Of a stretch of 63,588 bases of DNA, positions 719 to 58,468 are shown piece after piece. Both the position numbers and the translations under genes were made by a program. Under the pieces are notes generated by a model, which was not told the origin of the DNA, did no database searches, and saw nothing but the letters and a program-made list of their open reading frames with translations. Source of the stretch: a virus (Duplodnaviria > Caudoviricetes). The DNA lies in IMG/VR virus record IMGVR_UViG_3300017700_001004, positions 1-63,588 of that record; one strand, 5' to 3'. Position 1 is the stretch's first letter. Every line of letters begins with the position of its first letter.

Positions 719-815
719 TTTGACTTCCTTTCTGTGGGCCGCGCCCACTCATATTCGTTTTCACTCGGGTGGCTCACGTCGCCGCTCGCCGGGGGGGGTG
801 GGCCGTCGCCGGTCC

Positions 816-9215: not shown

Positions 9216-9243
9216 GGTGGATCGACACGCCGAGGGAGCCACC

Positions 9244-9363
9244 ATGACACGACCACCGCCGCCGCGACCACGCATCGACTGGTTCCGCACCATCTTCTGG
9301 ATCTGCACGATCGCGGCACTCGCCGCCTTCTGGACCGCAGTTGGCCGGGCGGTGCTCTCGTGA
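9244..9363 (+). CDS. Small single-TM membrane protein
   Basis: MTRPPPPRPRIDWFRTIFWICTIAALAAFW; GAGGGAG RBS. Confidence 0.5.
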   Translation: MTRPPPPRPRIDWFRTIFWICTIAALAAFWTAVGRAVLS

Positions 9364-9458
9364 TGGCGCTGGCCTCCCTCCACCCCGCCGCTCAGGTGGC
9401 CGTGGTCGTCATGGTCGGCCTCGTCGTCCTCTCCCTCATCGCGAGGGTCCGTCGGTGA
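9363..9458 (+). CDS. Small single-TM membrane protein
   Basis: TGATG coupling at both ends; hydrophobic VAVVVMVGLVVLSLI. Confidence 0.45.
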   Translation: MALASLHPAAQVAVVVMVGLVVLSLIARVRR

Positions 9459-9835
9459 TGTGGATGGACGCCACCAATGCCGTCTTCGAGACGATCGGCG
9501 CTCTCGTCGTCCTCCTCAACGTCCGCGCCCTCCTCCGCGACCGCCGCATCGCCGGGGTCCACTGGGCACCGACCGTCTTCTTCACCACGTGGGGCATCTG
9601 GAATGTCCTCTACTATCCGGCCCTCGGCCAGTGGGCGTCAGCCGCCGCCGGTGTCCTCCTCGCCCTCGCCAACATCGCGTGGCTCGTCCTCGTGTGGCGC
9701 TTCCGCCCGCGCCCCGTCCGTGTCCCCGTGACCCGGTGGCACTGTCGTCGGTGCGACGAGGAGGTCGACATGGAGGCGTTCCGGTGCTGCTGCGTGGAGT
9801 CCCCCTCCCCGTGGGAGCCGGTCGTTGGCCGATGA
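9458..9835 (+). CDS. 3-TM PQ-loop/SemiSWEET-like membrane protein with a Cys-rich tail
   Basis: Three hydrophobic segments; ..IAGVHWAP..WGIWNVLYY.. pattern; C-terminal CRRC..CCC. Confidence 0.55.
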   Translation: MWMDATNAVFETIGALVVLLNVRALLRDRRIAGVHWAPTVFFTTWGIWNVLYYPALGQWASAAAGVLLALANIAWLVLVWRFRPRPVRVPVTRWHCRRCDEEVDMEAFRCCCVESPSPWEPVVGR

Positions 9836-11346: not shown

Positions 11347-11699
11347 TGGAGTACTCAGTGGGATCACGCGAGAACCGACCGTGGGGCACTTGGGAGGTGG
11401 TCGCCGTCGGCCCCGGCCACGTGGTCAAGCGCATCGTCGTCCGGGCCATGAACCGGACCAGCCTCCAGCGCCACCGGGGCCGGGCCGAGAGCTGGACGGT
11501 CGTCGCCGGGCGCGGGCGCTTCGTGCTCGGGAGCCGGGCGCACGGTGTCACGGTCGGCGACATCATGCATGTGCCGAGGGGCCAGATCCACCGGATCGAG
11601 GCCCACCAGGACAGCGACCTCGTCCTGATCGAGGTCCAGACTGGTCGGTGCGACGAGGGCGACATTGAGCGCATCGAGGACGACTACCACCGAGACTGA
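11346..11699 (+). CDS. Cupin resembling the type II phosphomannose isomerase C-terminal domain
   Basis: RPWG, SLQRH..RAESWTVV, HRIE..LVLIEVQTG..EGDIERIEDDY. Confidence 0.88.
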   Translation: MEYSVGSRENRPWGTWEVVAVGPGHVVKRIVVRAMNRTSLQRHRGRAESWTVVAGRGRFVLGSRAHGVTVGDIMHVPRGQIHRIEAHQDSDLVLIEVQTGRCDEGDIERIEDDYHRD

Positions 11700-12567: not shown

Positions 12568-12803
12568 TGGCACGACGCACCATCTCAGACCGCCTCTGCG
12601 CCGCTCTTATCGCGAGGGGGCACAGGGAGACCACCCACCGCAGCCGCAAGTATCGGGCCTTCGAGAAGGAGCCGGGCGGCGACTGCTACTACGTCGGCAG
12701 GGGCGGCGCGCTCCGCGTTGGCCGGACCGCCACCGAGAGCTTCTCGCTGGAGAGGACAGCCCTCCGTGCCGCCCTCCTCCGCGAGGTGCCCGAGAGGGAC
12801 TAG
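12567..12803 (+). CDS. Hypothetical basic protein
   Basis: TGATG coupling. Confidence 0.55.
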   Translation: MARRTISDRLCAALIARGHRETTHRSRKYRAFEKEPGGDCYYVGRGGALRVGRTATESFSLERTALRAALLREVPERD

Positions 12804-12854
12804 CGCATCGGACCCGCTGAGCGTAGCATTCGACCCACAGACAGGAGACCCACA

Positions 12855-12989
12855 ATGGACCCGACAGGAATCACCACAGCAGCCACCGGCCTTCTCGAGG
12901 CAGCCGCCACCACTGGCGTCGTCGTGCTCGTCGCCGGTCTCGTCCTCGCCGGGGTGTGGGGCTGGCTCACGCGGGGGCGGGGGTACTGA
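12855..12989 (+). CDS. Small membrane protein
   Basis: AGGAG RBS; VVVLVAGLVLAGVWGWL. Confidence 0.5.
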   Translation: MDPTGITTAATGLLEAAATTGVVVLVAGLVLAGVWGWLTRGRGY

Positions 12990-13258
12990 TGCACACAGAG
13001 GAGATGACGCTTCGTGTCGACGTCCGCCCACCATTCTGGCAGCGCCTCCGCGAGGTCTTCTGGCGCGGGCCTCCCCGCCCCCTCCGGATTGGATTCATGT
13101 TTGCTCCTCTGGGGCCTGATGGGCTCAGCGATCTGCAGCATGTCCAGGTGTCTGTCATGGCTCCGTGCGGCCTGCGAGAGGTCGATCTGGCCTTCGAGGT
13201 CACCGTTGCGGCAGGGTACTCAGTCCTCATGGATGCTCCTTCTGCTGCTCGTGAATGA
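12989..13258 (+). CDS. Hypothetical protein
   Basis: TGATG coupling. Confidence 0.45.
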   Translation: MHTEEMTLRVDVRPPFWQRLREVFWRGPPRPLRIGFMFAPLGPDGLSDLQHVQVSVMAPCGLREVDLAFEVTVAAGYSVLMDAPSAARE

Positions 13259-18500: not shown

Positions 18501-18699
18501 GGGTGATCGCTGGCACGTGGTCGACGAGGAGGCCGGGACAGAGCTCTGCCCGGTCTTCGACCACGAGATCACTGCGACCGAGGTGGCCATCAAGGTCAGC
18601 GATGGCCACCCATTCTTCACCCACATCCCGGTGACCCACCTCGGCGACGCCTATCCTCGGATCGGGCAGCCGTGGCATCCTGTTCTGGAGCTCCCATGA
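18478..18699 (+). CDS. Hypothetical protein
   Basis: Fills the gap between nrdB and the nucleotidyltransferase. Confidence 0.45.
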   Translation: MTFRPQRRGDRWHVVDEEAGTELCPVFDHEITATEVAIKVSDGHPFFTHIPVTHLGDAYPRIGQPWHPVLELP

Positions 18700-19139
18700 T
18701 CGCCATCGTCTCTGGGGGCTTCGACCCCATCCACTCCGGCCACGTTGCCATGATCCTCGAGGCCGGAGAGCTCGGCGAGGTCCACGTCATCCTGAACACG
18801 GACGAGTGGCTCGAGCGCAAGAAGGGCCGCGCCTTCATGCCGTGGGAGGAGCGGGCGGCGGTCGTCGGTGCCATCCGTGGTGTGGCCGCTGTGCATCGTG
18901 CACAGGACGACGACGAGACCGTGGCCCCTAGCCTGCGGGCGCTGGCCCCGGCGCTCCTCGAGCGTGGTCCAGTGGTGTTCTGCAACGGTGGCGACCGGAC
19001 CGTGGGCACGACCCCGGAGCAGGCAGTGTGCGCCGAGCTGGGCATCGCCGTGGCGTGGGCCGTGGGCGGCGGCAAGACGCAGTCCAGCTCGTGGCTGCTG
19101 GAAAAGTTCACAGATGGGGTTGCCTTCCGTCCGAGGTGA
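18696..19139 (+). CDS. Cytidylyl/adenylyltransferase (HxGH family, RfaE/TagD-like)
   Basis: VSGGFDPIHSGH, LNTDEWLERKKG..MPWEER, NGGDR, KTQSSSWL. Confidence 0.9.
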   Translation: MIAIVSGGFDPIHSGHVAMILEAGELGEVHVILNTDEWLERKKGRAFMPWEERAAVVGAIRGVAAVHRAQDDDETVAPSLRALAPALLERGPVVFCNGGDRTVGTTPEQAVCAELGIAVAWAVGGGKTQSSSWLLEKFTDGVAFRPR

Positions 19140-24692: not shown

Positions 24693-24719
24693 GGAGAGGG
24701 GCCTCACCGGCCTCTCTCC
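24693..24719. terminator. Hairpin between convergent genes
   Basis: ggagagggg...cctctctcc. Confidence 0.5.
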
Positions 24720-26746
24720 ACCATTCGGACTGCCTCGCTGTAGGTGTACTTCGCGCGGCCCCAGTCCGGTCCGTGCTCGTTGTCCACGCGCACCGGCACG
24801 AGCAGGGGGACGACGTCCCTCATGATCTCCGCCGGGCGCTCGGCCTCGTGCTCCGACGAGGAGCTGAAGCAGAGCTCGTCGTGCATCTGCAGCATCGGCA
24901 GCAGCCCCTCGCGCGCGCACGCGAGCAGGGCCATCTTGGTCTGCACTGCGGCCCCGCCCTGAATGATCGAGTTGCCGGCCTTCCGCGTGTCGGCCCGGCG
25001 GAGGCGCTTGCCCCGCCACGGGTGGTCGTCCAGGGACTGCCTCTTGTGGGCCTCCTCGAGGCTGCATGGCGTCATCAGGTGACCGGCCCGGCGACCCTCC
25101 TCCCACTCCTCCTTGGGGATCCAGCTGGCCTCCCAGTCGTCGAAGCGGCGACGCCTGCCGTCGAGCAGGCGGACGTATCCCTTCCGGTCCGCCATCCCCT
25201 TCGCCTTGGCGGCGAACTCAGCGACGAACGGCAGCTTCTCGTCGTACGTCTGCATGATCTCCTGGGCCTCGTCGAGGGACAGGCCCGCCATCAGGGCGAA
25301 CTTTGGCACCCCGGCCCCGAATGCCTTGGCGAAGTTGCAGTCCTTGGCCCGCTTCCGGGTCAGGCCCGTCATCTCGACCACGAGGTTGTGGTAGTCGGCC
25401 TTCTCGTTCTCGTGATAGTACGAGACCGCCTCCTCGGAGCGCCTGAGCTCCAGCCGGGCGGCATAGTGCACGATGAGGCGATACTCCTGCTGGCTGTAGT
25501 CGGGCGCGGACCAGACGCAGCCCCGCTCCGGCACGAAGCACTCCCGGATCATGGTGCCGATGTCGACGTATCCCGGGATGTGGTCCTTGTGGTCGGGGTT
25601 GGCCTTGTCCGGCTCCGGCCTGTTCATCTGCTGGAGCGGAGGGTTGGAGTACGAGAAGCGATAGGTCCGCGTCCCGCCGTCGGCCGACCTCAGCTGGTGG
25701 ATCTCCGCGTGGAGCCTCCCCCGATCGAGGTGCTCGAGAATGTATGTGCCGATGAACTTCTCGGCTCCGTCGTGGTAGGCCCGCGCCCGCGCGATGTGCT
25801 GGGCGGCAGGGTGGGCGCAGTTCTCGAGAAACTCCTTGTCGAAGCTGCCCTGCTCGGTCTTGGCAGTGCGGGGGAACGCGATGCCGAGCTCAGTGAATGT
25901 GTGCTCGAGCCAGCGAGGCGAGCGGACGTCGTCGATGGTGAGCTCTCGGCGCGAGCTCAGCTTGCTCTTGAGCTCCGCCAGCTCCCGGCGGGCGTGGCCA
26001 CGGAGAAGCTCCTGGTTCTGCTCCGCCCGGTCGATGCTGATGGGGATGCCGCGCGTCCTCATCTCGAGAACGTGTGGCGTCAGCTCGCACTCGAGATCGT
26101 ACGCAGCCATCAGGCCGTTGGTCTCGAGCTGCGGGATCATGCGCCTCGCGGCCTCCAGGGTCGCCACAGCGTCCTGCTCCGCGTAGGGGCCGACGTAGCG
26201 GGCGGGCAGCTGCCAGAGGAACTCCTTGACGCGTCTCGGGTTGCCACCGTGGGTGATCACCGCCTCGCGGAGGAGGGCCTCGTCCTTGCCCTCGATGCCC
26301 TGCCACGCGCAGATTGAGTCGAGGTCGTAGGCCGGTCGGTTCTCGTCCAGGAGGACCGCCATCGTGTGCGTGTCGTGGGGCCGCATCGGGCGGATGCCCG
26401 TCCAGCCCATGTCGTACGGACCGTTCTGGAAGACCACGTGGCATCGGCGGCACAGATCCCCCAGCCACGCGACGACGATGTCGTGGTCGAAGCATGCGGG
26501 CGTGTCCGGATGGCGGATGGGGGCATAGCCCGACCCACCGTCCCACGCCCACGACACTCCGCAGAGCCAGCCATCCCGGTGGACCCAGCCCGGCCCTACG
26601 CCACGCTGCAGGCCCCGGTCGTTCGTCTCCGTGTCGATGGCAATCCATGCCCCGTCCGGCACCACCGGAAGGGACGTCGGAGCCTGCCACTCGGAGTCCG
26701 GCTTGAAGAGGTCGTGCTGTCCAACTCCGTACTGGGGACGCGCCAT
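24704..26746 (-). CDS. polA: Family A DNA polymerase with 3'-5' exonuclease domain
   Basis: IDTET, QNGPYD, YAEQDA; PDYSQQEYR (motif A), RKRAKDCNFAKAFG (B), QMHDE (C). Confidence 0.95.
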   Translation of the reverse strand: MARPQYGVGQHDLFKPDSEWQAPTSLPVVPDGAWIAIDTETNDRGLQRGVGPGWVHRDGWLCGVSWAWDGGSGYAPIRHPDTPACFDHDIVVAWLGDLCRRCHVVFQNGPYDMGWTGIRPMRPHDTHTMAVLLDENRPAYDLDSICAWQGIEGKDEALLREAVITHGGNPRRVKEFLWQLPARYVGPYAEQDAVATLEAARRMIPQLETNGLMAAYDLECELTPHVLEMRTRGIPISIDRAEQNQELLRGHARRELAELKSKLSSRRELTIDDVRSPRWLEHTFTELGIAFPRTAKTEQGSFDKEFLENCAHPAAQHIARARAYHDGAEKFIGTYILEHLDRGRLHAEIHQLRSADGGTRTYRFSYSNPPLQQMNRPEPDKANPDHKDHIPGYVDIGTMIRECFVPERGCVWSAPDYSQQEYRLIVHYAARLELRRSEEAVSYYHENEKADYHNLVVEMTGLTRKRAKDCNFAKAFGAGVPKFALMAGLSLDEAQEIMQTYDEKLPFVAEFAAKAKGMADRKGYVRLLDGRRRRFDDWEASWIPKEEWEEGRRAGHLMTPCSLEEAHKRQSLDDHPWRGKRLRRADTRKAGNSIIQGGAAVQTKMALLACAREGLLPMLQMHDELCFSSSSEHEAERPAEIMRDVVPLLVPVRVDNEHGPDWGRAKYTYSEAVRMVERGR

Positions 26747-27444
26747 CAGTCCAGCTCCGCCTCCAGCCCGAGCTCCCTCGCAACCTCGAGAACACGTGTG
26801 CGGAAGAGCCTCACACGGTCCTCCAGGGGCGCGGGCGGGGCGGCGGTAGGGGCCGGGGCCTCGGCAGCGTCCACAGAGCTCTCCACGGGCGCTCGACCGA
26901 CGGGCGGAGGCGGCGGGGCGGCGCGGTCGGCGCACCCCTGCGAGCAGTAGGCCTCGCCGCCGCGCTCCCAGCGTCCGGTCAGCTCGCTCAGCGGGGTGTC
27001 GCACTGCGGGCATGCCTCCGGCTGGAGGGCGTGGTGCCCGCCGTCGTCGGGTGTTCCGGGACGAGGGTCCTCCTCCGCTGGCCACGCATACGGGGCGAGG
27101 TCGAGAGGCTCCTCCGCCCGGCGGGCCGGGCCGTGGGGACCGACGCCGAGGGCGGCGCGGGCGTGGGCCTCGATGAGGATCATGTAGTTCATGACGTCGC
27201 GGACGCAGGCAAGGGCCGAGCCGTCCTGTCCAGTGGGGTCTGCCTCGATCGCCGCGAAGATGTCTCCGCCGTGGCGAGACACGATGCCCTCGAGGCGATC
27301 CAGGGGCCGCACAACAGTGAACCACGCGCCGGGGCCACCCCTCCGCTTCCAGCTGTCGCCGTATGTCTCGGTCTTGAGACGAATGAGGCCGACCGCATCG
27401 GCGGCGACCACGTCGAGGTGGCTCATGTATCGCATGTCTGTCAC
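26746..27444 (-). CDS. Nucleotide-modification-associated domain 1 (Nmad1/DUF1599-like) with a Zn-ribbon tail
   Basis: K..TYGDSWKRRG..DRL..DVMNYMIL; CPQC..YCSQGC. Confidence 0.7.
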   Translation of the reverse strand: MTDMRYMSHLDVVAADAVGLIRLKTETYGDSWKRRGGPGAWFTVVRPLDRLEGIVSRHGGDIFAAIEADPTGQDGSALACVRDVMNYMILIEAHARAALGVGPHGPARRAEEPLDLAPYAWPAEEDPRPGTPDDGGHHALQPEACPQCDTPLSELTGRWERGGEAYCSQGCADRAAPPPPPVGRAPVESSVDAAEAPAPTAAPPAPLEDRVRLFRTRVLEVARELGLEAELD

Positions 27445-28052
27445 AGTTCCATTCCCTTCGCTGCTCTGTATCGCGCCCACCGGTCGAGGAGATACTTGGT
27501 GACCTCTGGCTCGTCGGCGTGGCCCCTGACTCGTGCCATGATCTCCCTGTCCATGGCGAGCGCCACGGGGATGCCGAACTTGTTGCCCATGAGAGTCTCC
27601 TCCATCCCCTTCTCGAGCATCTCGATCAGGTCGGCGGTCTTGATCCTCCAGCGCCAGACATCGTCGACCCACTGGGGACGAATGCCCTGATCGGACAGGG
27701 ACTCCTCCTCGAGGGCGCTGATGATCTCCTTCAGGGCCGGGTGTCGGGCCTTGTACGGATACGGGATGTCCCCCGCCCCCAGCTCACCACTGTCGTGGAA
27801 GACTGCGAACTCGGCCGCACGGGCGGGGGCGTCCGGCCAGATGGTCATGAGGATGCGGAGAACCTGCCACGTGTGCTCGGCGTTGGTCTGCTGGACCAGA
27901 ACGGGCCACGTGCTGTATCGCTTGACGGCCCCGGCGAGCCGGGCGTCTCCGCGAACCAGATCATGCAGCGCTGTTGTAGCGCCGCTCGAGCCACTCGACG
28001 CAGGCTCGGCGCCAGTCGTGTCCGGGGATGTCTCCTGCAATGCTGAGTGCAC
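27441..28052 (-). CDS. HD-domain 5'-deoxynucleotidase (YfbR-like)
   Basis: KRY..QTNAEHTW, FHDSGE..GDIPYP.K, K.AD..E. Confidence 0.85.
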   Translation of the reverse strand: MHSALQETSPDTTGAEPASSGSSGATTALHDLVRGDARLAGAVKRYSTWPVLVQQTNAEHTWQVLRILMTIWPDAPARAAEFAVFHDSGELGAGDIPYPYKARHPALKEIISALEEESLSDQGIRPQWVDDVWRWRIKTADLIEMLEKGMEETLMGNKFGIPVALAMDREIMARVRGHADEPEVTKYLLDRWARYRAAKGMEL

Positions 28053-29043
28053 GTTCCTTGTCCTTTGCCTTGTGGGCCGCGTGGGCCTCGCGCATCAGCA
28101 CCAGAGTGGTGATGCCCTCGAATGTGAAGAAGTCGCGGAGGTCGCCCGGCGAGCCGACGCTGTCGGACCCGTCCCAGAACGCCTCCAGCTGGCGGAAGAT
28201 CTCGGCGACCGGGATCTCCGGAGAGGGCCGAAAGATCCTCGTCGGCGAGAGGTCGCCCTCGTACAGCGTCGGACATGTCCGCTGGCTCATGGCGTGGTCG
28301 TAGGTGACGAGGACCGGCGGCTCGGGCGTCCCGACCCGGTCCATCGTCTCGAGATATCCGTGGAGGTTGTTGCTCAGCTGGTACATGTGGCCGAGGGCGA
28401 GGCCGCATGCCGCAGCCACGAACTCCTGGAGCACCGACATGTGGACAGCGTTCGCGCCGTAGGCTCCCCAGACCGCATCGTTGCTGCGGTTGCAGATCGT
28501 CATGTCGAGACGCGAGTAGTCGTCGGCGTCCTGCCGAACACGGAAGTAGATCTGGGTGTTGCACGGAAAGTCGGCACCCTGTCGGCCGAGGTCCCAGGTC
28601 GGGTCCCACATCTGCAGAACAATGCGGCGGTCGCCCGGATTGGCCCGGAGGAGCTCGATGATGCGGGCGAGCTGGTCGAGGTAGCGGCCACCGAAGTCGG
28701 AGCTCTCGAAGTGGACGCGCCAGCGGTGGCCGTAGGCACCGTGGTAGATCTCTCCGTCGTCGCTGTACTTCTTCAGCGTCCCGAGGAAGCGACCGATGCT
28801 GGCGACGTCGTTGCGCCCGGCCAGCATCCAGATGCTCTCCATCAGGTGGAAGAAGGGGTTGGCGTCGCGGGCCGGGTCCAGGAGGACGCGCTCGTCGGGT
28901 CGCTCGTACACCGTGACGACTGGCCACGGGACCACGAGGGCTGGGCCGTTGCGGGTCTCCTCGCGGACACCGTGCTCTCGGACGAGCCTGCTGCCGAGGA
29001 CGTATGCCTCCTGGACGTTTCTTGCCTGTATGCTACTGAACAC
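27961..29043 (-). CDS. Thymidylate synthase-fold protein, probable dUMP hydroxymethylase
   Basis: ETRNG, RDANPFFH..E..W, DFPCN (catalytic Cys), RSND..WG..GAN (Asn indicates dUMP specificity), NNLHGY. Confidence 0.85.
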   Translation of the reverse strand: MFSSIQARNVQEAYVLGSRLVREHGVREETRNGPALVVPWPVVTVYERPDERVLLDPARDANPFFHLMESIWMLAGRNDVASIGRFLGTLKKYSDDGEIYHGAYGHRWRVHFESSDFGGRYLDQLARIIELLRANPGDRRIVLQMWDPTWDLGRQGADFPCNTQIYFRVRQDADDYSRLDMTICNRSNDAVWGAYGANAVHMSVLQEFVAAACGLALGHMYQLSNNLHGYLETMDRVGTPEPPVLVTYDHAMSQRTCPTLYEGDLSPTRIFRPSPEIPVAEIFRQLEAFWDGSDSVGSPGDLRDFFTFEGITTLVLMREAHAAHKAKDKERALSIAGDIPGHDWRRACVEWLERRYNSAA

Positions 29044-29419
29044 TTCCGGTCCCCGGCCCTGCGAGTGCAATTCTCTCCGACCGGGCCATGAGGGCATTCA
29101 GGCGCTCGATCAGGGCGGGATGGATCTCCCGCAGCTTGGTGTTGAAGAGACCCGGCACCGGCTCGGTGGCGTCGTCCGGGGTCTCCTGTGCGGCGAGGTC
29201 CGCCGCGAAGCGGGCCGTCATCATGTGGGCGACCAGCGCCACGAGGTATGGCGCAGTCGACGGGCAGAGGCCGTTGAGGGTGGCGTTCATGTGCACCATG
29301 CGGGACATGGCGTCGGCCAGTCCGTACATGACCTCGTGCATCTCTCCGTCGCCCTCGGCGAAGCAGCGGCATCTCGGGAAGTGCTCGCTCCCGAGAGCGT
29401 CTCTGGCCCCGCCCATCAC
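29033..29419 (-). CDS. Hypothetical protein
   Basis: GTGA coupling to the glycosyltransferase gene. Confidence 0.5.
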   Translation of the reverse strand: MMGGARDALGSEHFPRCRCFAEGDGEMHEVMYGLADAMSRMVHMNATLNGLCPSTAPYLVALVAHMMTARFAADLAAQETPDDATEPVPGLFNTKLREIHPALIERLNALMARSERIALAGPGTGSVQ

Positions 29420-30240
29420 TTGAGACCTGCCGCCTTCTTCCAGAAGATGGTCACCTCGGTCCGAGTGCCGAGACCCGCCGCGTCCGTCTTGTTCTGCTTC
29501 TGGCGCAGGCGGACGAGCCGATCTCCGTGGAGCTCCTGGAGCCGACGAGCCGCCGTGTCCTGGACCTCGTGGCTGCGATAGGTCGAGCAGCCGCCGGGCA
29601 TGTTCGTCATCTTCTGGCCGTTGGCGTAGTAGAAGAGGCAGCAGTTGCCGCGCCCGGCGCGGAGCAGCTGGAGCTGGAGGTCGAAGTCCTCCATGACCTC
29701 GACGCGACCGTGCTCCATCTCGAGCCAGTCGGCCGTCCGGCAGCCGAACATGCGCATGACGCGGGTGGCGATGGCCACCATGTTCTCGTCGCGCGGCCCG
29801 CCGACCCCGGCCCGGTTGTTGCCCTCGCGGCTGCTGATGCCGACAGAGGCGTATGTGTCGAGCCAGTGGTCGATCTCGCGGAACATCTCGTCGGTCTGCT
29901 CCTCGGTCTGGGCGACCAGCCGCCAGTCGTCGGCCGACTTGCGAACGAGGAAGTCGATGTCGTCGTCCATCATCACGAACTTGTCGGCTCCGATGGACTG
30001 GGCATGCTCGCCAATCCAGTGGCGCGTCGGCCCGATGCCGCGCATGCCCTCCGGAGTCTCGAGAATGTCGAAGGTCGGGATGCCCAGACCACGCAGGACG
30101 AGGTCGTACGCCTCGAGCTGGCCGTGGGGCACGACGTAGTGTGTGCGGCGGCGAAGCTCCGGCGAGAGACGGAGCAGCGGCCCCATCCGGACGTTCGCCT
30201 CCGTTGCGCGCATGTGGGACGGGATGTACAGGTGCATCAT
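29416..30240 (-). CDS. TET-associated (TAGT/GREB1/JGT-like) GT-A glycosyltransferase
   Basis: LYIPS..R, GIGPTRHWI, MMDDDI, MEDFDL.LQLL..G, PGGCS.YR. Confidence 0.8.
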   Translation of the reverse strand: MMHLYIPSHMRATEANVRMGPLLRLSPELRRRTHYVVPHGQLEAYDLVLRGLGIPTFDILETPEGMRGIGPTRHWIGEHAQSIGADKFVMMDDDIDFLVRKSADDWRLVAQTEEQTDEMFREIDHWLDTYASVGISSREGNNRAGVGGPRDENMVAIATRVMRMFGCRTADWLEMEHGRVEVMEDFDLQLQLLRAGRGNCCLFYYANGQKMTNMPGGCSTYRSHEVQDTAARRLQELHGDRLVRLRQKQNKTDAAGLGTRTEVTIFWKKAAGLK

Positions 30241-30293
30241 AGTCAGGTCTCCTCGGTGGGTTCTGTCACCATACTCTGGCGGGGCGTCAGGCG

Positions 30294-30695
30294 CTAGGGC
30301 TCAGGCCACACGTATGCGTTGGCCGGAGTCTCGGTCCAGCCGAACTGGGCATAGTGGCGCGGATCCTTGAGCAGGAGCGCGGCCCGGTGGCTGGCGTGGA
30401 AGTCCTCCCGCCCCAGCCAGGACGGCATGACGATCGTCTCGGGCGGGGGGAGGAACTGGGGCATGTTGTTGACGTAGCCCCGGCGCTCCCACTCCCGGAC
30501 CATGACGTCGTGGTACAGCTGGAGAGCCGCCTCGTGCCCGCGCCACATCCTGACGGCAGGGTGGTTGCGCCAGCCGCCGCCGTTGCGTATTGCGTTGAGG
30601 ATCTGGACGCACTCGAGGCGCTGCTTGCCGAGACGCTGTCGGTCGAGCACCATTGCGGAGCACGCAAAGTTCGGAGCGGGAAGGAATGTCTGCAT
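30294..30695 (-). CDS. Pyrimidine-dimer DNA glycosylase-like protein (MSMEG_6728 family)
   Basis: MQTFLP..LDRQRLGKQRLE, NHPAVRMW.G, PSWLG..FHASHR..LL.KDP..Y..YVWP. Confidence 0.88.
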   Translation of the reverse strand: MQTFLPAPNFACSAMVLDRQRLGKQRLECVQILNAIRNGGGWRNHPAVRMWRGHEAALQLYHDVMVREWERRGYVNNMPQFLPPPETIVMPSWLGREDFHASHRAALLLKDPRHYAQFGWTETPANAYVWPEP

Positions 30696-30735
30696 GTCTC
30701 TTTCATACCCTGTCTGAGTGCGATGAACAAACTGC

Positions 30736-30764
30736 TTTACAAGTTGGGCCATTGGCTCTATGAG
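30736..30764 (+). promoter_or_regulatory. Early promoter TTTACA-17-TATGAG
   Basis: Recurrent motif ahead of a counter-oriented gene. Confidence 0.7.
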
Positions 30765-30793
30765 AGTCGGACAACCCGCCAAGGAGACGTACC

Positions 30794-31120
30794 ATGAAAG
30801 TCACTCGTACCAGCAACCGCGACGGATCAGTCACCATCTACCTCAACGGCAAGAAGGCGTTTCGCGGAAACGCTGTTGATGCCGAGACTTTCGCGCTTGA
30901 GTCTGTCTTCGACGCCGACGTCTGGATTGCCCAGGAGCTCGCCAAGGCCACGAGCGCCGCCGACGCCGACCGCTACCTCGCGATGGGTCCGGAGTTCACC
31001 AAGGACTACCACCACCGCCTCGCGGAAAAGATCCGTGCCAAGTTTCCCACAGCAGAACGCATGAAGGCTCGCGAGCAGACCGCAAAGCGCCTCGCCGCCG
31101 AGATCTTCCGCAAGCAATAG
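30794..31120 (+). CDS. Shared N-terminal module plus helical domain; moron-like insertion
   Basis: NRDGSVTIYLNGKKAFRG; own promoter and AAGGAG RBS; opposite strand to its neighbours. Confidence 0.75.
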   Translation: MKVTRTSNRDGSVTIYLNGKKAFRGNAVDAETFALESVFDADVWIAQELAKATSAADADRYLAMGPEFTKDYHHRLAEKIRAKFPTAERMKAREQTAKRLAAEIFRKQ

Positions 31121-31122
31121 TT

Positions 31123-31620
31123 CTACAGGAGCAGCTCAGCCTGCCGAGGCCCCGTCCCAGTGGCGGGGCCTTCTTGCGTCTGGGACCAGTGGACCAGCTC
31201 CTGCATGAACACGGAGAGCAGGTGCTGGTGCATCGGCTCGTTGTAGAAGTGGTTCAGGCCCGACGGGTGCGGGACGAGGGCATGCCATCCTCCGTGCCCG
31301 TCCGGTGTCCAGACGAAGGCCCGCGCCAGCTCGTGCTTGGTGCCCCCGCGTATGATGCTGTTGACGGGTGCGCCGAGAAGCACGACCGTGCGGCCGAGAA
31401 GCTCCTCGCGCAGCGCCGGGGCCAGCGTCCGCGCCTCCTTGGCGGACCACTCCCGACCAGAGATCACGTTGCGGCGATCGAATGTGTCGAGATAGACCCG
31501 CTTCTCGAGGCCCGAGAACTTGAGCAGCCGCGCCCCGGTGCACGAGGGCGGATGCGGATACAGGGCATGAGCCGGGTCGGAGCTGACCGGATTGTTCATG
31601 CCGAGCAGAACTGGCTTCAC
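31123..31620 (-). CDS. Uracil-DNA glycosylase superfamily-like protein
   Basis: LLGMNNP (motif A-like), TG.RL, VVLLG, VPHPSGLN (motif B). Confidence 0.7.
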   Translation of the reverse strand: MKPVLLGMNNPVSSDPAHALYPHPPSCTGARLLKFSGLEKRVYLDTFDRRNVISGREWSAKEARTLAPALREELLGRTVVLLGAPVNSIIRGGTKHELARAFVWTPDGHGGWHALVPHPSGLNHFYNEPMHQHLLSVFMQELVHWSQTQEGPATGTGPRQAELLL

Positions 31621-32519
31621 CTGAACCTCCCTCGCGGAGTCCCCTCACCGAGGCGGACGCGCTCGTACTTGTCGAACTCACAGAGCGTGTGCTCGACCTC
31701 TCTCATCTCCCACTCCGGCCACAGGCGACCGTGCTCCGGCCACGCGGTGAGGTCGGAGCGGGCAATCGACAGGAGATCCTGCATCTCGCGGCATGCCTGT
31801 GCCTGACTGAGGGACTTCCTGTGGTCGCGCCCGTGGACGCGATGGAGACCACGGACAGCCCCCGGCCCCGCATTGGCCCACGACATGATGTCAGGGGCGT
31901 CCCGCAGGATCGGCAGGTGGCGCAGATCGGTCACTATCTCGTAGCCGGTGAAGCCCCCGATGTAGGGGAACTTCTGGAGCGCCAGCCAGAAGGCCTCGAG
32001 CGTCCGTGGAGTCGTCTGGAGCGGGTGGCCGCCGACTAGGGCGGGGAGGCGCTTGCGGGCCTCCTCGACGATCCACAGCGCCCCGGTCAGCTTGTCCATT
32101 CCGTCCGGCGTCTTGACGATGTAGGCCCCGGTCACCCACGGTCCCCGTGGGATCGCGGTGCGAAGGTTCGCCTCGACCTCCTCGATCGTGGCCAGCCCCT
32201 TGACGTAGCGCCAGCCGACCGGCTCCCCACGAAAGAGGTCGTTCTGCTGGAAGAGGATCTCGCCACTCTCGGTGCGATTGAGTGTGCGGAACAGGATCGT
32301 CCCGAGCACCTGACACTCCTCCGACATCTTGGACAGCCAGCACCGGACGTAGTGCCGGAACCAGAGGGACGTTCGGTCCTCCTCGCGGAAGACATTGGTG
32401 AACCGATACTGCTGGAGGATCGGGTCGTCGGTCCACGGGCGGGGCTTCCCCGAGTTGCGGTCGAGGAAGATCTGGTGCCGGGCGCGGGCGAAGGCGAAGA
32501 ACGCCTCTGGCGAGCTCAT
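31617..32519 (-). CDS. aGPT-Pplase1 / 5-hmdU DNA kinase helical-domain family base-hypermodification protein
   Basis: PWTDDPILQQYRFTNVFRE.DR, GAY, GF..YEI..DL, GPGA.RGL, VEHTLCEFDKY. Confidence 0.85.
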   Translation of the reverse strand: MSSPEAFFAFARARHQIFLDRNSGKPRPWTDDPILQQYRFTNVFREEDRTSLWFRHYVRCWLSKMSEECQVLGTILFRTLNRTESGEILFQQNDLFRGEPVGWRYVKGLATIEEVEANLRTAIPRGPWVTGAYIVKTPDGMDKLTGALWIVEEARKRLPALVGGHPLQTTPRTLEAFWLALQKFPYIGGFTGYEIVTDLRHLPILRDAPDIMSWANAGPGAVRGLHRVHGRDHRKSLSQAQACREMQDLLSIARSDLTAWPEHGRLWPEWEMREVEHTLCEFDKYERVRLGEGTPRGRFR

Positions 32520-33214
32520 CGTCTCCAGGCCCCGATGGTCTGCCAGTGTCCGCCCTCGAACTTCGGCGCACGGACGCACTCCCAGTCGGCGAAGCGGGCA
32601 GCGATGGCCGGGCCGTCGGTCGTGCGCCAGTGGGGCCGCGACAGGTGGATCTCCATCGTGACCTGCCGAACGCAGTCGGGCAGGGGAGCCGTGCTGAAGA
32701 AGTCGTACTCGGCTCCCTCGACGTCGATCTTCAGAACGTCGGGCATGAACTCCAGCACCTCGCGGAAGGACAGCATGGGGATCTCGCCCTGTGATACGCG
32801 GCCCCTGTACTTGACCGAGCTGGTGTTGCCGGGGTTCTTGCCCGTGGGCGAGAGCCAGATCTCGCCGACGCCCGACTCTGCGGCCACGAGCGCCCGGCTG
32901 CTCTGCATGATCTGCAGGCCCTGATTCTCTCCGAGCTGGACGCGGGTGTTCTGTCCGAGGCATGCGAAGTTGCTGGCCTCAGGCTCGATCGACCACACGC
33001 TCGAGGCTCCGTGGTCCAGCGCCCAGCGGGCATAGGCCCCGATGTTGCCTCCGATGTCGAGGACGCGGAGTCCCCTGACGTCCATCCACCCATAGGTGGA
33101 CGCGATCTCCTTGGCGACGAAGTCGTCGAGTGTGCCCTCTCGGCAGATGACCCCGAGAACCTCTCGGGTGTTGCGCATCTCGGTCTCTGTGCCGAGTGTC
33201 ACGGGAAGCTGCAT
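32516..33214 (-). CDS. FkbM-family SAM-dependent methyltransferase
   Basis: VLDIGGNIG, IEPEASNF, LKIDVEGAEY, MEIH. Confidence 0.88.
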   Translation of the reverse strand: MQLPVTLGTETEMRNTREVLGVICREGTLDDFVAKEIASTYGWMDVRGLRVLDIGGNIGAYARWALDHGASSVWSIEPEASNFACLGQNTRVQLGENQGLQIMQSSRALVAAESGVGEIWLSPTGKNPGNTSSVKYRGRVSQGEIPMLSFREVLEFMPDVLKIDVEGAEYDFFSTAPLPDCVRQVTMEIHLSRPHWRTTDGPAIAARFADWECVRAPKFEGGHWQTIGAWRR

Positions 33215-33319: not shown

Positions 33320-34003
33320 TCAGGCGATCTTGATGAAGTCGTGCTCGCTGTCCCACTTCAGGGCGGCGGCGGTGAGGCCGGCAGCAGCGGCCTGCTCGAC
33401 GGTCATGCCGTCCTTGTACTTCTCGAACAGGGCGGCGGACGCCGAGCCAGCGCGCTTCGGGTTGTTGTCCTTCCCGTATGCCTTGCCCTCCTTGTCCTTG
33501 CCGAGGGTGATCTTCGCCGTCAGGGCGAAACCGCCGACGGTCTTGGCCTTCTCCTCTTTCGGAGCGGCAGCAGCGGTGGTCTTTGCGGCTTCAGTCACAG
33601 AACTTCTCCTTGCGTTTTCACGTCTGTGCCACTCGTCGGTCCGGATGCGATCCCTGACAATCATCTCGCAGATGGTCTTGTGTGCAGAGGGCGGCGTCTT
33701 TGACTTGCGACAGAGGGCATCGTACACTGCCCGGCTGAGCTCCTGCATGCGCTCCTCGCGCACGCGATCGCTCTCGGCGGTGCTGATTCTCTCTCTTGCT
33801 CTCTCGGACGCAACCTTGTCACCAAGCACCTCGGCACACATGCGAGGAAGGAACAGATAGTTCCAGTTCTTCGCAACATCCTCGGCAGAGTTGATGATCA
33901 CGTCGCACGTGTCGATCAGGGGATGAAGACGGGCTTCCTCCGGACCCTCGAAGGCCCAGATGTCACCCCATCCCCAGCACGTCACGGCAACACAGGTCGG
34001 CAT
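33320..34003 (-). CDS. Protein with C-terminal 'NPKR.GS' domain (paralog 3); second strong in-frame start at 33598
   Basis: NNPKRAGSASAALFEKYKDGMTV..LKWDSEHDFI; AGGAG RBS before both ATG 34003 and GTG 33598; promoter TTTACC-17-TAGGGT at about 34085-34057. Confidence 0.7.
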   Translation of the reverse strand: MPTCVAVTCWGWGDIWAFEGPEEARLHPLIDTCDVIINSAEDVAKNWNYLFLPRMCAEVLGDKVASERARERISTAESDRVREERMQELSRAVYDALCRKSKTPPSAHKTICEMIVRDRIRTDEWHRRENARRSSVTEAAKTTAAAAPKEEKAKTVGGFALTAKITLGKDKEGKAYGKDNNPKRAGSASAALFEKYKDGMTVEQAAAAGLTAAALKWDSEHDFIKIA

Positions 34004-34064
34004 TGGCGGATGCGACTCCTGGCAGCTTGGCCCCACGGAATTGTGGACCCAAGTGCACCCTAGC

Positions 34065-47694: not shown

Positions 47695-48753
47695 CTAGCT
47701 CGCCAGCTTGGGCCCGATCTGCAGGGCGTCGACGGCTGCGCCGGTCCACGCGACGCTGCCGTCGGGATTGAGGTTGAGGAGGCGCGGATAGTGGCTGTAT
47801 GTCGCCGAGAGAGCAAAGGCCGTCCCGTCGCTGTTGGTCGCTCCGCTCTTGAGGCTGTTGTACTGTGTCCTCGCGGTCGCGTCGGTCCTCCTCGGGAAGG
47901 AGACAATCTGCACCGCGTCGATGGTCCCCGGCGTGGAGCTGAGATTGGCGATGTCGTAGAGGTCCTGATTGCCGACGGTGCTCGTCTCGACGTAGGTCGT
48001 GTCTCCGTCGACAACGCTCTCGTCGACCATCGCGTAGTTGTCTGTTCCGGACAGCGCGGTCCACTGCTTCTGGGCCGTGTCGGAGGTCGGCCGCAGGGTC
48101 TCGATGCGGCGGATACCGAGGAAGGTGGCCGCGTCCGTGACATAGAGATCATCGAAGTAGTTGCTGCCTCCACTCAGCGCGGAGTTGTAGAAGTAGATCT
48201 CGTCGACCAGAGCCACGCCCGATCGTGCCGTCGTGACACCCGTGGCCGAGCCGGCAGAGGCACCATCGATGAAGAGCTCGATGCTTCCGGTCCCGGCTGT
48301 TCCCATCGTGAACACCAGACCCATGTGGTACCACGTGGCTGCTGCGATGGGGACAGTTGTACGGAACATCTCAGCCGTGATTGTTCCGGCGGCGCTGTAT
48401 GTGTTGACGACAAGAATGCCCGTCGAGAGGAGCTGGATGCCGAACTGGAACGCACCAGCATTGCGGAAGTAGACAACGGCTGAGCTACTCCTGGTCGACA
48501 TCCCAGACACACTGGTCGTGTAGAAGTGGAACCCAACACAAGATGTTGAGACAGTGGACGGGAGAACACGAGAGAAGTAGCCGATGTTAAACTGGACGTC
48601 TCCGATGACACGGAGAGCCTGTCCATTCGTGAATGGTGTCGTCGTGGTCGTTGTGTACTGGCCAGTCTGGCTGGTGATCCAGCGAGACTGCAAACCGATC
48701 GCGGCCTGCACGCCATTGTACATGTCGAAGCCATCCATGAAGACAACGGCCAT
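47695..48753 (-). CDS. Virion protein with LamG/ConA-like domain (paralog of 54347..55462)
   Basis: FMDGFD, WYH..ELFIDG, YFDDLY, NP.G..WT..V. Confidence 0.7.
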   Translation of the reverse strand: MAVVFMDGFDMYNGVQAAIGLQSRWITSQTGQYTTTTTTPFTNGQALRVIGDVQFNIGYFSRVLPSTVSTSCVGFHFYTTSVSGMSTRSSSAVVYFRNAGAFQFGIQLLSTGILVVNTYSAAGTITAEMFRTTVPIAAATWYHMGLVFTMGTAGTGSIELFIDGASAGSATGVTTARSGVALVDEIYFYNSALSGGSNYFDDLYVTDAATFLGIRRIETLRPTSDTAQKQWTALSGTDNYAMVDESVVDGDTTYVETSTVGNQDLYDIANLSSTPGTIDAVQIVSFPRRTDATARTQYNSLKSGATNSDGTAFALSATYSHYPRLLNLNPDGSVAWTGAAVDALQIGPKLAS

Positions 48754-51850: not shown

Positions 51851-51852
51851 CG

Positions 51853-58457: not shown

Positions 58458-58468
58458 CAGCTCGGCGA

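What the first reader, a model, noticed from the sequence alone, without database searches (positions are those of the whole stretch)
26746..33214. Thymine-hypermodification locus with an unusual enzyme set: candidate glycosylated and/or O-methylated 5-hmU base
Seen: a - strand block directly upstream of PolA encodes FkbM methyltransferase, an aGPT-Pplase1-family helical protein, a UDG-like protein, a pyrimidine-dimer glycosylase-like protein, a TAGT/JGT-type glycosyltransferase (DDD and EDFD motifs), a TS-fold enzyme (catalytic PCN, RSND..GAN), an HD nucleotidase and Nmad1. Established: Asn at this position marks dUMP rather than dCMP specificity. 5-hmdU phages (SP10, phiW-14, ViI, M6/YuA) modify 5-hmU after replication via a DNA kinase plus amine or amino-acid transferases, and kinetoplastid JGT glucosylates 5-hmU to base J. 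Here I see no P-loop kinase, amino-acid:DNA transferase, PLP or radical-SAM gene. The FkbM gene instead overlaps the aGPT-Pplase1 gene by 4 bp. Inference: T is replaced by 5-hmU, which is then glycosylated (base-J-like) and O-methylated, or directly methyl-etherified, giving a base I do not recognise as described.
Basis: partly seen in the sequence, partly recalled or inferred. Interest (0 to 1): 0.9.

Follow-up and report, generated by a model that had tools for sequence, protein, structure and literature searches.

The report
Kinase-less thymine hypermodification operon in phage
This phage carries a tightly packed gene set that should replace thymine with hydroxymethyl-uracil and then add a sugar and a methyl group to it, by a route that lacks the kinase and amino-acid transferase of all characterised pathways, so its DNA probably holds a base that nobody has yet described chemically.

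Summary
The window is a 97%-complete phage genome related to PhiJL001. Its - strand operon 33214-24704 encodes an FkbM methyltransferase, a standalone clade-1 aGPT-Pplase (Pfam HMUDK_hel), a TDG/MUG-fold protein, a Pyr_excise protein, a TAGT glycosyltransferase, a thymidylate-synthase-fold enzyme with the dUMP-hydroxymethylase signature, an HD nucleotidase and PolA. 'Nmad1' was not confirmed by Pfam. No 5-hmdU kinase, amino-acid:DNA transferase, PLP or radical-SAM gene was found anywhere in the genome.

- The gene set is not unique. FkbM+HEL+TAGT+TS recurs in 6 other viral contigs.
- FkbM lies within 45 bp of TAGT in 17 of 21 loci that have both. It therefore most likely methylates the sugar, not hmU directly.
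- HEL keeps an invariant Cys-Glu motif that aligns, weakly, with the catalytic Cys of PaMx11 gp46. It is probably an enzyme whose reaction is unknown.

The two glycosylase-fold genes may simply be uracil repair.

Kinase-less HEL loci are common among the contigs fetched. Among 83 relatives, 50 pair HEL with a class-I methyltransferase and only 7 with the kinase. Earlier notes of this scan describe such kinase-less relatives on other genomes.

No product is known, and I found no cultured phage with this FkbM. I rate it a new variant of a known kind, with interest about 0.6.

The parts
32516..33214 (-). FkbM-family SAM-dependent methyltransferase (232 aa). It is the first gene of the operon, and its stop overlaps the next start (ATGA).
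   Evidence: Pfam PF05050 6.2e-11; NCBIfam TIGR01444 2.2e-15, above its cut-off. It keeps all 13 invariant columns of a 55-sequence alignment, including the LDIG.N.G SAM motif. The overlap was read.
31617..32519 (-). Standalone clade-1 aGPT-Pplase (Pfam HMUDK_hel; 'HEL'), 300 aa. All-alpha, HhH-glycosylase-like, with an invariant Cys280-Glu281.
   Evidence: PF18723 6.1e-42. C280, E281 and K284 are invariant in 52 of 52 sequences; E276 is kept in 46 of 52. Model pLDDT 93. Only weak HhH-glycosylase fold matches, best E 0.18. hhalign puts C280 on C247 of PaMx11 gp46, E 0.016, probability 2.8%.
31123..31620 (-). UDG-superfamily protein of TDG/MUG type (165 aa). Its start overlaps the HEL stop by 4 bp.
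   Evidence: No Pfam hit; phrog_12275 4e-29. Model pLDDT 91. Foldseek against PDB: 13 matches at E<=0.001, all TDG or UdgX; the best is human TDG with 5hmU (4fnc, 1.5e-4). Invariant G7, N10, P11, P117, H118 and G121 in 40 sequences.
30794..31120 (+). Possible 108-aa ORF on the opposite strand, between the two glycosylase-fold genes (uncertain).
   Evidence: Picked by my codon-usage score; no Pfam hit (it was among the 44 ORFs). A 96-aa ORF on the - strand (30827-31117) also exists.
30294..30782 (-). Pyrimidine-dimer-glycosylase-like protein (Pyr_excise; MSMEG_6728 family). The true start is perhaps 30695.
   Evidence: PF03013 7.7e-26; NCBIfam NF038085 2.1e-42, above its cut-off.
29416..30240 (-). 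TAGT-family GT-A glycosyltransferase (274 aa), the candidate hmU-DNA glycosyltransferase.
   Evidence: PF20691 5e-25 and phrog_842 6.8e-41. 40% identical to PhiJL001 gp22 and 73% to L020. The DDD and EDFD strings are seen.
29033..29419 (-). 128-aa ORF of unknown function between TAGT and TS. PhiJL001 has an Nmad5 gene at this position.
   Evidence: No Pfam hit; a homologue in L020 at 33%; PhiJL001 gp23 matches Nmad5 at 1.7e-16.
27961..29097 (-). Thymidylate-synthase-fold enzyme, read as a dUMP hydroxymethylase.
   Evidence: PF00303 3.7e-21; phrog_5131 1.2e-99. 42% identical to PaMx11 gp51. Active-site columns.
27441..28052 (-). HD-domain 5'-deoxynucleotidase-like protein (start uncertain).
   Evidence: PF12917 YfbR-like 6e-9, HD_3 9e-5. 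A gene in the same position follows TS in PaMx11 and PhiJL001.
26746..27444 (-). 232-aa protein. Its first ~100 aa form a conserved small domain found next to TS and PolA in 62 loci.
   Evidence: No Pfam hit in 0 of 32 members; cluster 4 is present in 62 loci; atlas lead to DUF1599.
24704..26746 (-). Family A DNA polymerase, the last gene of the operon.
   Evidence: PF00476 4.6e-40.
11397..11699 (+). Cupin similar to the C-terminal domain of type II phosphomannose isomerase. It may help supply a sugar donor (speculative).
   Evidence: PF01050 6e-17; TIGR01479 7.8e-16, far below its cut-off.
18696..19139 (+). Small nucleotidyltransferase of the cytidylyl/adenylyl-transferase family. It may help activate a sugar (speculative).
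   Evidence: PF01467 5.1e-9. The best NCBIfam match is rfaE domain II, 1.2e-10, far below its cut-off.

Best explanation
The block 33214-24704 is a replication-linked operon for thymidine hypermodification that works without a kinase.

Step 1 (inferred from the active-site pattern and homology): the TS-fold enzyme makes 5-hydroxymethyl-dUMP. The HD nucleotidase helps keep dTMP out of the pool. PolA then builds DNA with 5-hmU in place of T.

Step 2 (inferred from family membership): on the DNA, the TAGT GT-A glycosyltransferase puts a sugar on the 5-hydroxymethyl group, giving a base-J-like glycosyl-hmU.

Step 3 (inferred from gene linkage in other phages): the FkbM methyltransferase O-methylates that sugar, giving a methylated glycosyl-hmU.

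The clade-1 aGPT-Pplase (HEL) is a core component with a Cys-Glu active site like that of the amino-acid:DNA transferases. It acts on hmU in DNA, but its reaction is unknown.

The TDG/MUG-fold protein and the Pyr_excise protein are most simply a uracil or AP-site repair pair that guards a genome built from dUMP-derived nucleotides.
For: (a) TS-fold enzyme. At E. coli ThyA positions it has C146, R166, S167 and D169 conserved, Asn at 177, Asp at 143 and Asn at 147. This is identical to YuA gp17, PaMx11 gp51 and PhiJL001 gp24. YuA is the phage described as resembling M6 (title in the reference list seen). M6 and PaMx11 DNA carry hmdU-derived bases (PMC8989533, passages).
(b) Gene order TS-HD-small ORF(s)-PolA is shared with PaMx11 and PhiJL001.
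(c) TAGT matches its Pfam family above the cut-off. GT-A phage DNA glycosyltransferases resemble the putative JGT of T. cruzi structurally (bioRxiv 10.1101/2023.12.21.572611, passages).
(d) Of 80 viral loci fetched with an FkbM profile, 33 hold a GT. Of the 23 that hold a TS gene, 19 hold a GT. FkbM is within 45 bp of TAGT in 17 of the 21 loci that have both. The same four genes occur in L103, L117, L119, L121, L129 and L130.
(e) FkbM keeps every invariant residue of its family alignment.
(f) HEL has invariant C280 and E281. C280 and E276 align with C247 and E243 of gp46, and Cys247 is the catalytic nucleophile there (PMC11472151, passages).
(g) No kinase or transferase is found in the genome or in four complete relatives.
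(h) A UDG activity in phages with T-modified genomes excises U and bypasses modified T (PMC13697223, passages).
Against: - No chemistry is shown. The donor sugar, the acceptor and the methyl acceptor are all inferred.
- In this window FkbM is not next to TAGT. It is translationally coupled to HEL, 2.3 kb away from TAGT.
- Four FkbM+HEL+TS loci (L007, L057, L077, L083) have no detectable GT within the fetched DNA. So FkbM can work without TAGT, or an undetected GT is present.
- The closest relative, L020, has the whole operon without FkbM, so methylation is an add-on.
- The HEL-gp46 alignment is statistically weak (probability 2.8%, E 0.016), and Foldseek did not retrieve a gp46 structure.
- Of the 80 FkbM loci, 37 showed none of the labelled partner genes. 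Many of these are distant FkbM relatives or short contigs.
- T4 beta-GT glucosylates hmU in duplex DNA only when it is mispaired (abstract of PMC4111573), so activity of a GT on hmU cannot be assumed.
Confidence: 0.45

Rival explanations
1. FkbM and HEL form a functional pair that acts on hmU itself, independently of TAGT. HEL recognises, flips or covalently activates hmU, and the methyltransferase O-methylates the 5-hydroxymethyl group to give 5-methoxymethyl-uracil. The DNA would then carry a mixture of methylated and glycosylated hmU.
For: - FkbM's stop overlaps HEL's start. This is the slot that the P-loop kinase holds in PaMx11 (gp49/gp50).
- An unrelated class-I methyltransferase holds the same slot in 50 of 83 HEL loci, with a median gap of 0 bp.
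- FkbM lies directly next to HEL, in either order, in L057, L077 and L083. These loci have no detectable GT.
Against: - FkbM is far more often next to TAGT: 17 of 21 loci.
- Of the 23 FkbM loci with a TS gene, 19 have a GT.
- In vitro, M6 gp54 (the kinase) and gp51 were sufficient without gp55, so a clade-1 partner is not needed for the kinase step (PMC8989533).
Confidence: 0.2
2. HEL is itself a Cys-dependent transferase that works on unphosphorylated hmU. It forms the exocyclic methylene and adds an unknown small nucleophile or linker. TAGT and FkbM then decorate that linker, as in the linker-plus-sugar bases of SP-15 and YerA41.
For: - The invariant Cys-Glu aligns with the catalytic Cys of the amino-acid:DNA transferase.
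- The Pfam ADDT profile weakly hits the C-terminal part of PhiJL001 gp19: E 7.8e-4, below its cut-off.
- aGPT-Pplase1 without a detectable kinase is reported in RP13, EP_H11 and EcoM_IME92. These belong to a phage group in which SP-15 and YerA41 carry glycosylated linkers on T (PMC13697223).
- HEL is kept in kinase-less genomes.
Against: No donor-making genes are evident. The homology to clade 2 is weak. Hydroxide is a poor leaving group without activation. There is no experimental precedent for clade-1 activity.
Confidence: 0.15
3. The DNA carries only 5-hmU (or T). The glycosyltransferase and methyltransferase act on something other than DNA, such as host envelope glycans or phage proteins.
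For: FkbM-family and GT-A enzymes are widely used for glycans (recalled). The window also holds a PMI-like cupin and a nucleotidyltransferase far from the operon.
Against: - Both genes sit inside an operon of nucleotide and DNA enzymes with overlapping stop and start codons.
- TAGT is a family defined by its link with DNA base modification (Pfam name).
- The co-occurrence with TS, HEL and PolA recurs across unrelated phages with GC content from 44% to 66%.
Confidence: 0.08

Closest known systems
Thymidine hypermodification clusters of Pseudomonas phages M6/YuA and PaMx11 (Lee et al. 2018, 2021; Wen et al. 2024)
   Same: The same virus family context, and the same order: clade-1 aGPT-Pplase, dUMP hydroxymethylase, HD, small ORFs, PolA. 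TS is 42% and HEL 41.5% identical to PaMx11. Modification is post-replicative, on 5-hmU.
   Different: There is no P-loop 5-hmdU DNA kinase, no clade-2 amino-acid:DNA transferase, and no PLP, radical-SAM, FAD or acetyltransferase tailoring genes. Instead there are a TAGT glycosyltransferase, an FkbM methyltransferase and two glycosylase-fold genes. FkbM holds the kinase's position upstream of HEL.
Alphaproteobacteria phage PhiJL001 (Keylargovirus, AY576273) and the uncultured genomes L020, L021 and L073
   Same: The same operon: UDG-like, gp18-like, HEL (46%), TAGT (40%), TS (39%), PolA, plus GTA-like tail genes. L020 shares PolA at 75%, TAGT at 73% and UDG-like at 72%. All are kinase-less.
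   Different: None of them has FkbM. PhiJL001 has Nmad5 where the window has a 128-aa ORF. L073 adds a radical-SAM/SPASM gene. I could not read the 2005 PhiJL001 paper, so whether its DNA was analysed is unknown to me.
Base J pathway of kinetoplastids (JBP hydroxylase + JGT)
   Same: hmU in DNA, glycosylated by a GT-A enzyme. Phage GT-A DNA glycosyltransferases are structural relatives of a putative JGT.
   Different: Here hmU is made before replication by a TS-fold enzyme, not by a dioxygenase. An O-methyltransferase and a Cys-Glu HhH-like protein are added. The sugar is unknown.
Phage 5hmC glycosylation clusters (C5-MT + 5mYOX/TET + GT; Pyle et al. 2023/2024; PNAS 2026 T-dioxygenase paper)
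   Same: TAGT-type GTs, and O-methyltransferases noted as co-occurring domains in metavirome mining.
   Different: Those clusters start from 5mC or T oxidised on DNA. Here the start is a dUMP hydroxymethylase. No product with a methylated sugar is reported in the passages I read.

Membership tests
M6/PaMx11/ViI-type thymidine hypermodification pathway | dUMP hydroxymethylase (TS fold, Asn at ThyA position 177) | tested here: met
   Alignment with E. coli ThyA, YuA gp17 and PaMx11 gp51.
M6/PaMx11/ViI-type thymidine hypermodification pathway | P-loop 5-hmdU DNA kinase (PF18748 / AAA_33-like) | tested here: not met
   No six-frame hit at E<=1. tblastn with PaMx11 gp49: best E 0.16.
M6/PaMx11/ViI-type thymidine hypermodification pathway | Clade-2 aGPT-Pplase, i.e. 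amino acid:DNA transferase (PF18724) | tested here: not met
   No hit at E<=1. tblastn with gp46: best E 0.26.
M6/PaMx11/ViI-type thymidine hypermodification pathway | Clade-1 aGPT-Pplase (PF18723) | tested here: met
   6.1e-42, 144 bits against a cut-off of 25.
Base-J-like hmU glycosylation | GT-A DNA glycosyltransferase of the TAGT/JGT type with a DxD motif | tested here: met
   PF20691, 89 bits against a cut-off of 27.5; DDD seen in the translation.
Base-J-like hmU glycosylation | Glycosyl transfer to 5-hmU in DNA; identity of the sugar | not testable with these tools
   Needs an enzyme assay or nucleoside mass spectrometry.
FkbM-family O-methyltransferases | Family profile above the curated cut-off, and an intact SAM-binding motif | tested here: met
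   PF05050, 43 bits against 22.7; TIGR01444, 57 bits against 37.7. Invariant D53, G55, G59 and E77 are kept.
FkbM-family O-methyltransferases | Hydroxyl acceptor (sugar or hmU) | not testable with these tools
   Only gene linkage is available: 17 of 21 loci have FkbM next to TAGT.
UDG superfamily, family 2 (MUG/TDG) | UDG alpha/beta fold, with an N-terminal G-x-N-x-P-type motif and a C-terminal motif | tested here: met
   Foldseek probability 1.00 to TDG and MUG, best E 1.5e-4. Invariant G7, N10, P11 and P117, H118, G121. The motif comparison with TDG/SMUG1 is recalled.
UDG superfamily, family 2 (MUG/TDG) | Glycosylase activity and substrate (U, hmU or neither) | not testable with these tools
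   Needs an assay.
5-hydroxy-dCMP synthases (RB69/DLP3 type) | Asn replacing Asp169 of ThyA | tested here: not met
   Asp is retained (RSND). The criterion comes from PMC13326640 section 28.
Nmad1 (DUF1599) for ORF 26746-27444 | Match to the Pfam family | tested here: not met
   0 of 32 family members matched at E<=1. There is only an atlas lead.

The most novel reading that the evidence does not exclude
Clade-1 aGPT-Pplase (HMUDK_hel) is not a kinase accessory. It is a Cys-dependent enzyme that defines a large branch of thymidine hypermodification that works without a kinase. It pairs with interchangeable partners: a class-I methyltransferase, an FkbM methyltransferase, a GT-A or a GT-B glycosyltransferase. 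In this phage the result is a base not yet described: an O-methylated glycosyl-hmU, or a linker-bearing derivative. The 50 of 83 loci with methyltransferase-HEL-TS operons would make yet another unknown base.
Probability: 0.25. Interest if true: 0.8.

Novelty: new variant of a known kind. Interest (0 to 1): 0.6.

Why it matters
All thymidine hypermodification pathways solved so far activate 5-hmU with a DNA kinase and then substitute the phosphate with an amine or amino acid. This operon and its many uncultured relatives lack both steps. They keep only the uncharacterised clade-1 aGPT-Pplase and add sugar and methyl transferases.

If the prediction holds, three things would follow:
- a methylated glycosyl-hmU base would be added to the list of natural DNA bases;
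- the clade-1 protein would get a function;
- a common class of marine and environmental phage genomes would be marked as carrying bases that can hinder sequencing and resist restriction enzymes.

The enzymes could also serve as tools for labelling 5-hmU.

Tried and rejected
- Complex prediction of HEL (A4) with FkbM (A2) gave no verdict (score 0.00). It is not evidence either way.
- Foldseek of the HEL model against PDB gave only weak HhH-glycosylase matches and did not retrieve a gp46 structure.
- phmmer of HEL, the UDG-like protein, FkbM and the class-I methyltransferase against PDB sequences gave nothing useful. The FkbM profile gave only generic SAM-motif hits plus one FkbM entry, 2py6.
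- The search for fused forms of HEL found 5 proteins. Two carry PolA domains and three have unannotated extensions. None is fused to a methyltransferase or GT.
- The genome-contig scan with FkbM found no relative. The metagenome-contig scan gave only the source contig of L007 plus distant relatives.
- The idea that FkbM never needs a GT, taken from L007, L057, L077 and L083, was weakened by the larger FkbM set.
- A 5-hydroxy-dCMP synthase reading of the TS-fold enzyme was rejected.
- Literature searches for a methoxymethyl-deoxyuridine base in phage, and for FkbM in phage DNA modification, listed no paper that describes this system. Only listings and abstracts were seen for most hits.
- Iyer et al. 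2013 and Lohr et al. 2005 are not held. What I say about them is recalled.
The contig lists and co-occurrence tables behind Fig. 2 of PMC8989533, Table S4 of the 2023 glycosyltransferase preprint and Dataset S10 of PMC13229309 may already list loci of this kind.

Full report
WHAT THE WINDOW IS. The window is one whole virus record (63,588 bp, 97% complete by CheckV) with about 66% G+C. Its tail genes match PhiJL001- and GTA-type families: DUF2460, Phage_phiJL001_Gp84_N, BR0599 and Rcc01698_C. Its replication genes are closest to the Mesyanzhinovviridae: the HEL protein is 46% identical to PhiJL001 gp19 and 41.5% to PaMx11 gp50, and a TS gene segment is 74% identical at DNA level to YuA-like phages.

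CHECK OF THE OBSERVATION. I called genes with a codon-usage score trained on the long ORFs and scanned them against Pfam, PHROGs and NCBIfam. On the - strand, from 33214 down to 24704, lie these genes:
- FkbM methyltransferase
- a standalone PF18723 protein (the former aGPT-Pplase1, now called 'HMUDK_hel'; I call it HEL)
- a 165-aa protein with no Pfam hit
- a Pyr_excise protein
- a TAGT glycosyltransferase
- a 128-aa ORF
- a thymidylate-synthase-fold enzyme
- an HD nucleotidase
- a 232-aa ORF
- PolA

Stops and starts overlap at several junctions. The FkbM/HEL junction reads ATGA.

The 165-aa protein is a UDG-superfamily member. A model built on 40 homologues (pLDDT 91) matches TDG, MUG and UdgX structures, with human TDG bound to 5hmU as the best hit (E 1.5e-4, TMq 0.58-0.64).

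The label 'Nmad1' for the 232-aa ORF was not confirmed. Neither it nor any of 32 members of its family hits a Pfam model. The atlas gives only a lead to DUF1599.

- No PF18748, PF13671 or PF18724 match in six frames at E<=1.
- No tblastn match to the PaMx11 kinase or transferase.
- No PLP or radical-SAM family among the other 75 ORFs scanned.

THE FIRST STEP. I aligned the TS-fold enzyme with E. coli ThyA and phage homologues. It keeps the catalytic Cys146, Arg166, Ser167 and Asp169. It has Asn at position 177, Asp at 143 and Asn at 147, which is exactly the pattern of YuA gp17, PaMx11 gp51 and PhiJL001 gp24.

PMC13326640 (section 28, read) names three positions: N177 as the substrate-specificity position, L143 as correlated with hydroxymethyl versus methyl products, and D169N as the mark of 5-hydroxy-dCMP synthases. 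The window's enzyme lacks D169N. I therefore read it as a dUMP hydroxymethylase. This is inference from pattern and homology, not proof.

COMPARISON WITH CHARACTERISED CLUSTERS. In PaMx11 the order is gp46 transferase, gp47 FAD enzyme, gp48 acetyltransferase, gp49 P-loop kinase, gp50 HEL, gp51 TS, gp52 HD, two small ORFs, then PolA (functions from Table 1 of PMC8989533). In the window, FkbM sits exactly where the kinase sits, coupled to HEL.

PhiJL001 has UDG-like, gp18, HEL, two small ORFs, TAGT, Nmad5, TS, HD-position gene, then PolA. The uncultured genome L020 is the closest relative (PolA 75%, TAGT 73%, UDG-like 72%, Pyr_excise 71%, HEL 60%). It has the same order as the window but no FkbM.

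The whole genomes of L020, L021, L073 and PhiJL001 hold no kinase and no transferase above the cut-off. Kinase-less HEL+TAGT is therefore the norm in this clade, and FkbM is an addition in the window's lineage.

Close FkbM homologues do exist: 84% identity on a 50,844-bp contig and 77% on a 64,410-bp contig. UDG-like homologues come from contigs of the same two lengths.

HOW COMMON IS THIS? I fetched the best 80 of 123 confirmed viral loci with HEL relatives. I clustered their + strand ORFs together with those of the window, L004, L006 and L007 and labelled families with iterated HMMs. Of the 84 loci, one (L089) had no full HEL ORF and was dropped. The remaining 83 pair HEL as follows:

| Partner of HEL | Loci (of 83) |
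|---|---|
| class-I methyltransferase (Methyltransf_23/11), median gap to HEL 0 bp | 50 |
| TAGT only | 11 |
| P-loop kinase | 7 |
| GT-B only | 5 |
| FkbM only | 4 |
| FkbM + TAGT (the window) | 1 |
| FkbM + GT-B | 1 |
| none of these | 4 |

After merging HEL proteins that are at least 90% identical, there are 52 groups, with counts 21, 10, 6, 5, 4, 1, 1 and 4 in the same order. This sample is biased towards relatives of the window's HEL. No record in the phage collection searched holds a close relative of the class-I methyltransferase: three records matched at about 30% identity.

WHAT DOES FkbM ACT ON? I fetched the best 80 of 208 confirmed viral loci found with a profile of 55 FkbM homologues. 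Among them:
- 33 hold a glycosyltransferase.
- 23 hold a TS gene. Of these, 19 hold a GT and 15 hold HEL.
- The same four genes as in the window occur in L103, L117, L119, L121, L129 and L130.
- Nine loci have FkbM+HEL+GT-B+TS.
- FkbM lies within 45 bp of TAGT in 17 of the 21 loci that have both.
- 37 loci showed none of the labelled partners. Many of these are distant FkbM relatives, fusions or short contigs.

Four loci (L007, L057, L077, L083) have FkbM next to HEL and TS with no detectable GT. L126 and L127 combine FkbM with a kinase.

The strong FkbM-TAGT linkage favours methylation of the sugar. My recollection that FkbM-family enzymes often O-methylate sugars points the same way. The window's own FkbM-HEL coupling keeps direct action on hmU, or on a HEL product, as a live alternative.

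In the phage record collection only two metagenome-assembled records hold this FkbM. In that record FkbM follows PolA, and the TS homologue has Asp at position 177, which is the dCMP type.

WHAT IS HEL? In 52 sequences, C280, E281 and K284 are invariant and E276 is kept in 46. A profile-sequence comparison with PaMx11 gp46 is weak overall (E 0.016, probability 2.8%). It does align C280 with Cys247 and E276 with Glu243. Cys247 is the nucleophile proposed for gp46 (PMC11472151), and a conserved Cys and a neighbouring Glu are essential in M6 gp51 and ViI gp247 (PMC8989533). The Pfam ADDT profile also weakly touches the C-terminal third of PhiJL001 gp19.

The HEL model is confident (pLDDT 93) and all-alpha. 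It shows only faint similarity to HhH glycosylases, much as was reported for gp46. I therefore think HEL is an enzyme that uses the same thiol chemistry on the C5 substituent of hmU. Its reaction in the absence of a kinase is unknown.

In M6, gp55 (one of the two aG/PT-PPlase paralogues listed for M6 in Table 3 of PMC5889632) could be left out of the lysate reconstitution without loss of the glycinylated product (PMC8989533). PMC13697223 reports aGPT-Pplase1 without a detectable kinase in RP13, EP_H11 and EcoM_IME92, which are relatives of phages with glycosylated linkers on T.

THE TWO GLYCOSYLASE-FOLD GENES. The TDG/MUG-fold protein keeps an N-terminal G-M-N-N-P motif and a C-terminal P-H-P-S-G motif. 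The Pyr_excise protein belongs to the MSMEG_6728 family. In phages with T-modified DNA, a UDG activity linked to the polymerase removes U and bypasses modified T (PMC13697223). A repair role is therefore the simplest reading. A role in recognising hmU cannot be excluded.

SUGAR SUPPLY. A PMI-type cupin (11397-11699) and a small nucleotidyltransferase (18696-19139) lie in the early region. Their link to the glycosyltransferase is speculative.

LITERATURE.
- The characterised pathways all use a kinase plus an amino-acid:DNA transferase (PMC8989533 and PMC5889632, passages read; PMC11472151, passages read).
- Metavirome mining has noted GTs near thymidylate synthase homologues (bioRxiv 10.1101/2023.12.21.572611, passages).
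- It has also noted O-methyltransferases among the domains that co-occur with phage dioxygenases (PMC13229309, passages).
- My searches listed no paper that describes this gene set or a methylated glycosyl-hmU or methoxymethyl-U base in phage DNA. These are full-text searches of the held library only.

EARLIER SCAN NOTES. Notes of this scan on other genomes describe kinase-less clusters of three kinds: GT type, GT+radical-SAM type and methyltransferase+HEL+TS type. My tallies agree with them.

VERDICT. Methylation of the sugar is the best-supported role for FkbM. The product remains unknown.

Noticed in passing
L023:6162-7001 and 49 other loci among L020-L099: A class-I SAM methyltransferase (Methyltransf_23/11) lies directly upstream of HEL (median gap 0 bp) in 50 of 83 HEL loci. 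It forms a compact operon of methyltransferase, HEL, TS, a small domain and PolA, with no kinase and no GT. No record in the phage collection searched holds a close relative.
   Followed up: partly
P0002 and P0005: HEL domains fused to family A DNA polymerase domains, in one case together with an exonuclease domain and PF13481. This suggests HEL can work at the replication fork. These may also be gene-calling run-throughs.
   Followed up: no
L005 (MW202657) 1939-2835 and 8959-9669: A FkbM homologue (33%) sits directly after PolA in a siphovirus whose TS homologue has Asp at the ThyA-177 position (dCMP type). The FkbM clade may therefore also serve cytosine-based modifications.
   Followed up: partly
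L126 and L127: Loci that combine a P-loop hmdU-kinase-like gene with FkbM and TS (and with TAGT in L126).
   Followed up: no
L073:8861-9847: A radical-SAM/SPASM gene sits next to TAGT in a complete 60.6-kb relative. An earlier scan note on another genome describes the same type.
   Followed up: no
window 30794-31120 (+): A 108-aa ORF with good codon score on the opposite strand, inside the - strand operon, between the two glycosylase-fold genes. No family match.
   Followed up: no
window 33320-34036 (-): A 238-aa protein upstream of FkbM. Its last ~50 residues match PhiJL001 gp18 (46%). Homologues precede HEL in L020, L021 and L073.
   Followed up: no
window 48753-63564 and 2-7666 (-): The structural module has GTA- and PhiJL001-type tail and baseplate families (DUF2460, Phage_phiJL001_Gp84_N, BR0599, Rcc01698_C). 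This points to an alphaproteobacterial host.
   Followed up: no
W01 (PhiJL001) 12757-13086: The Pfam amino-acid:DNA transferase profile weakly hits the C-terminal part of the clade-1 protein gp19 (E 7.8e-4, below its cut-off). This is consistent with a shared catalytic region between the two clades.
   Followed up: partly
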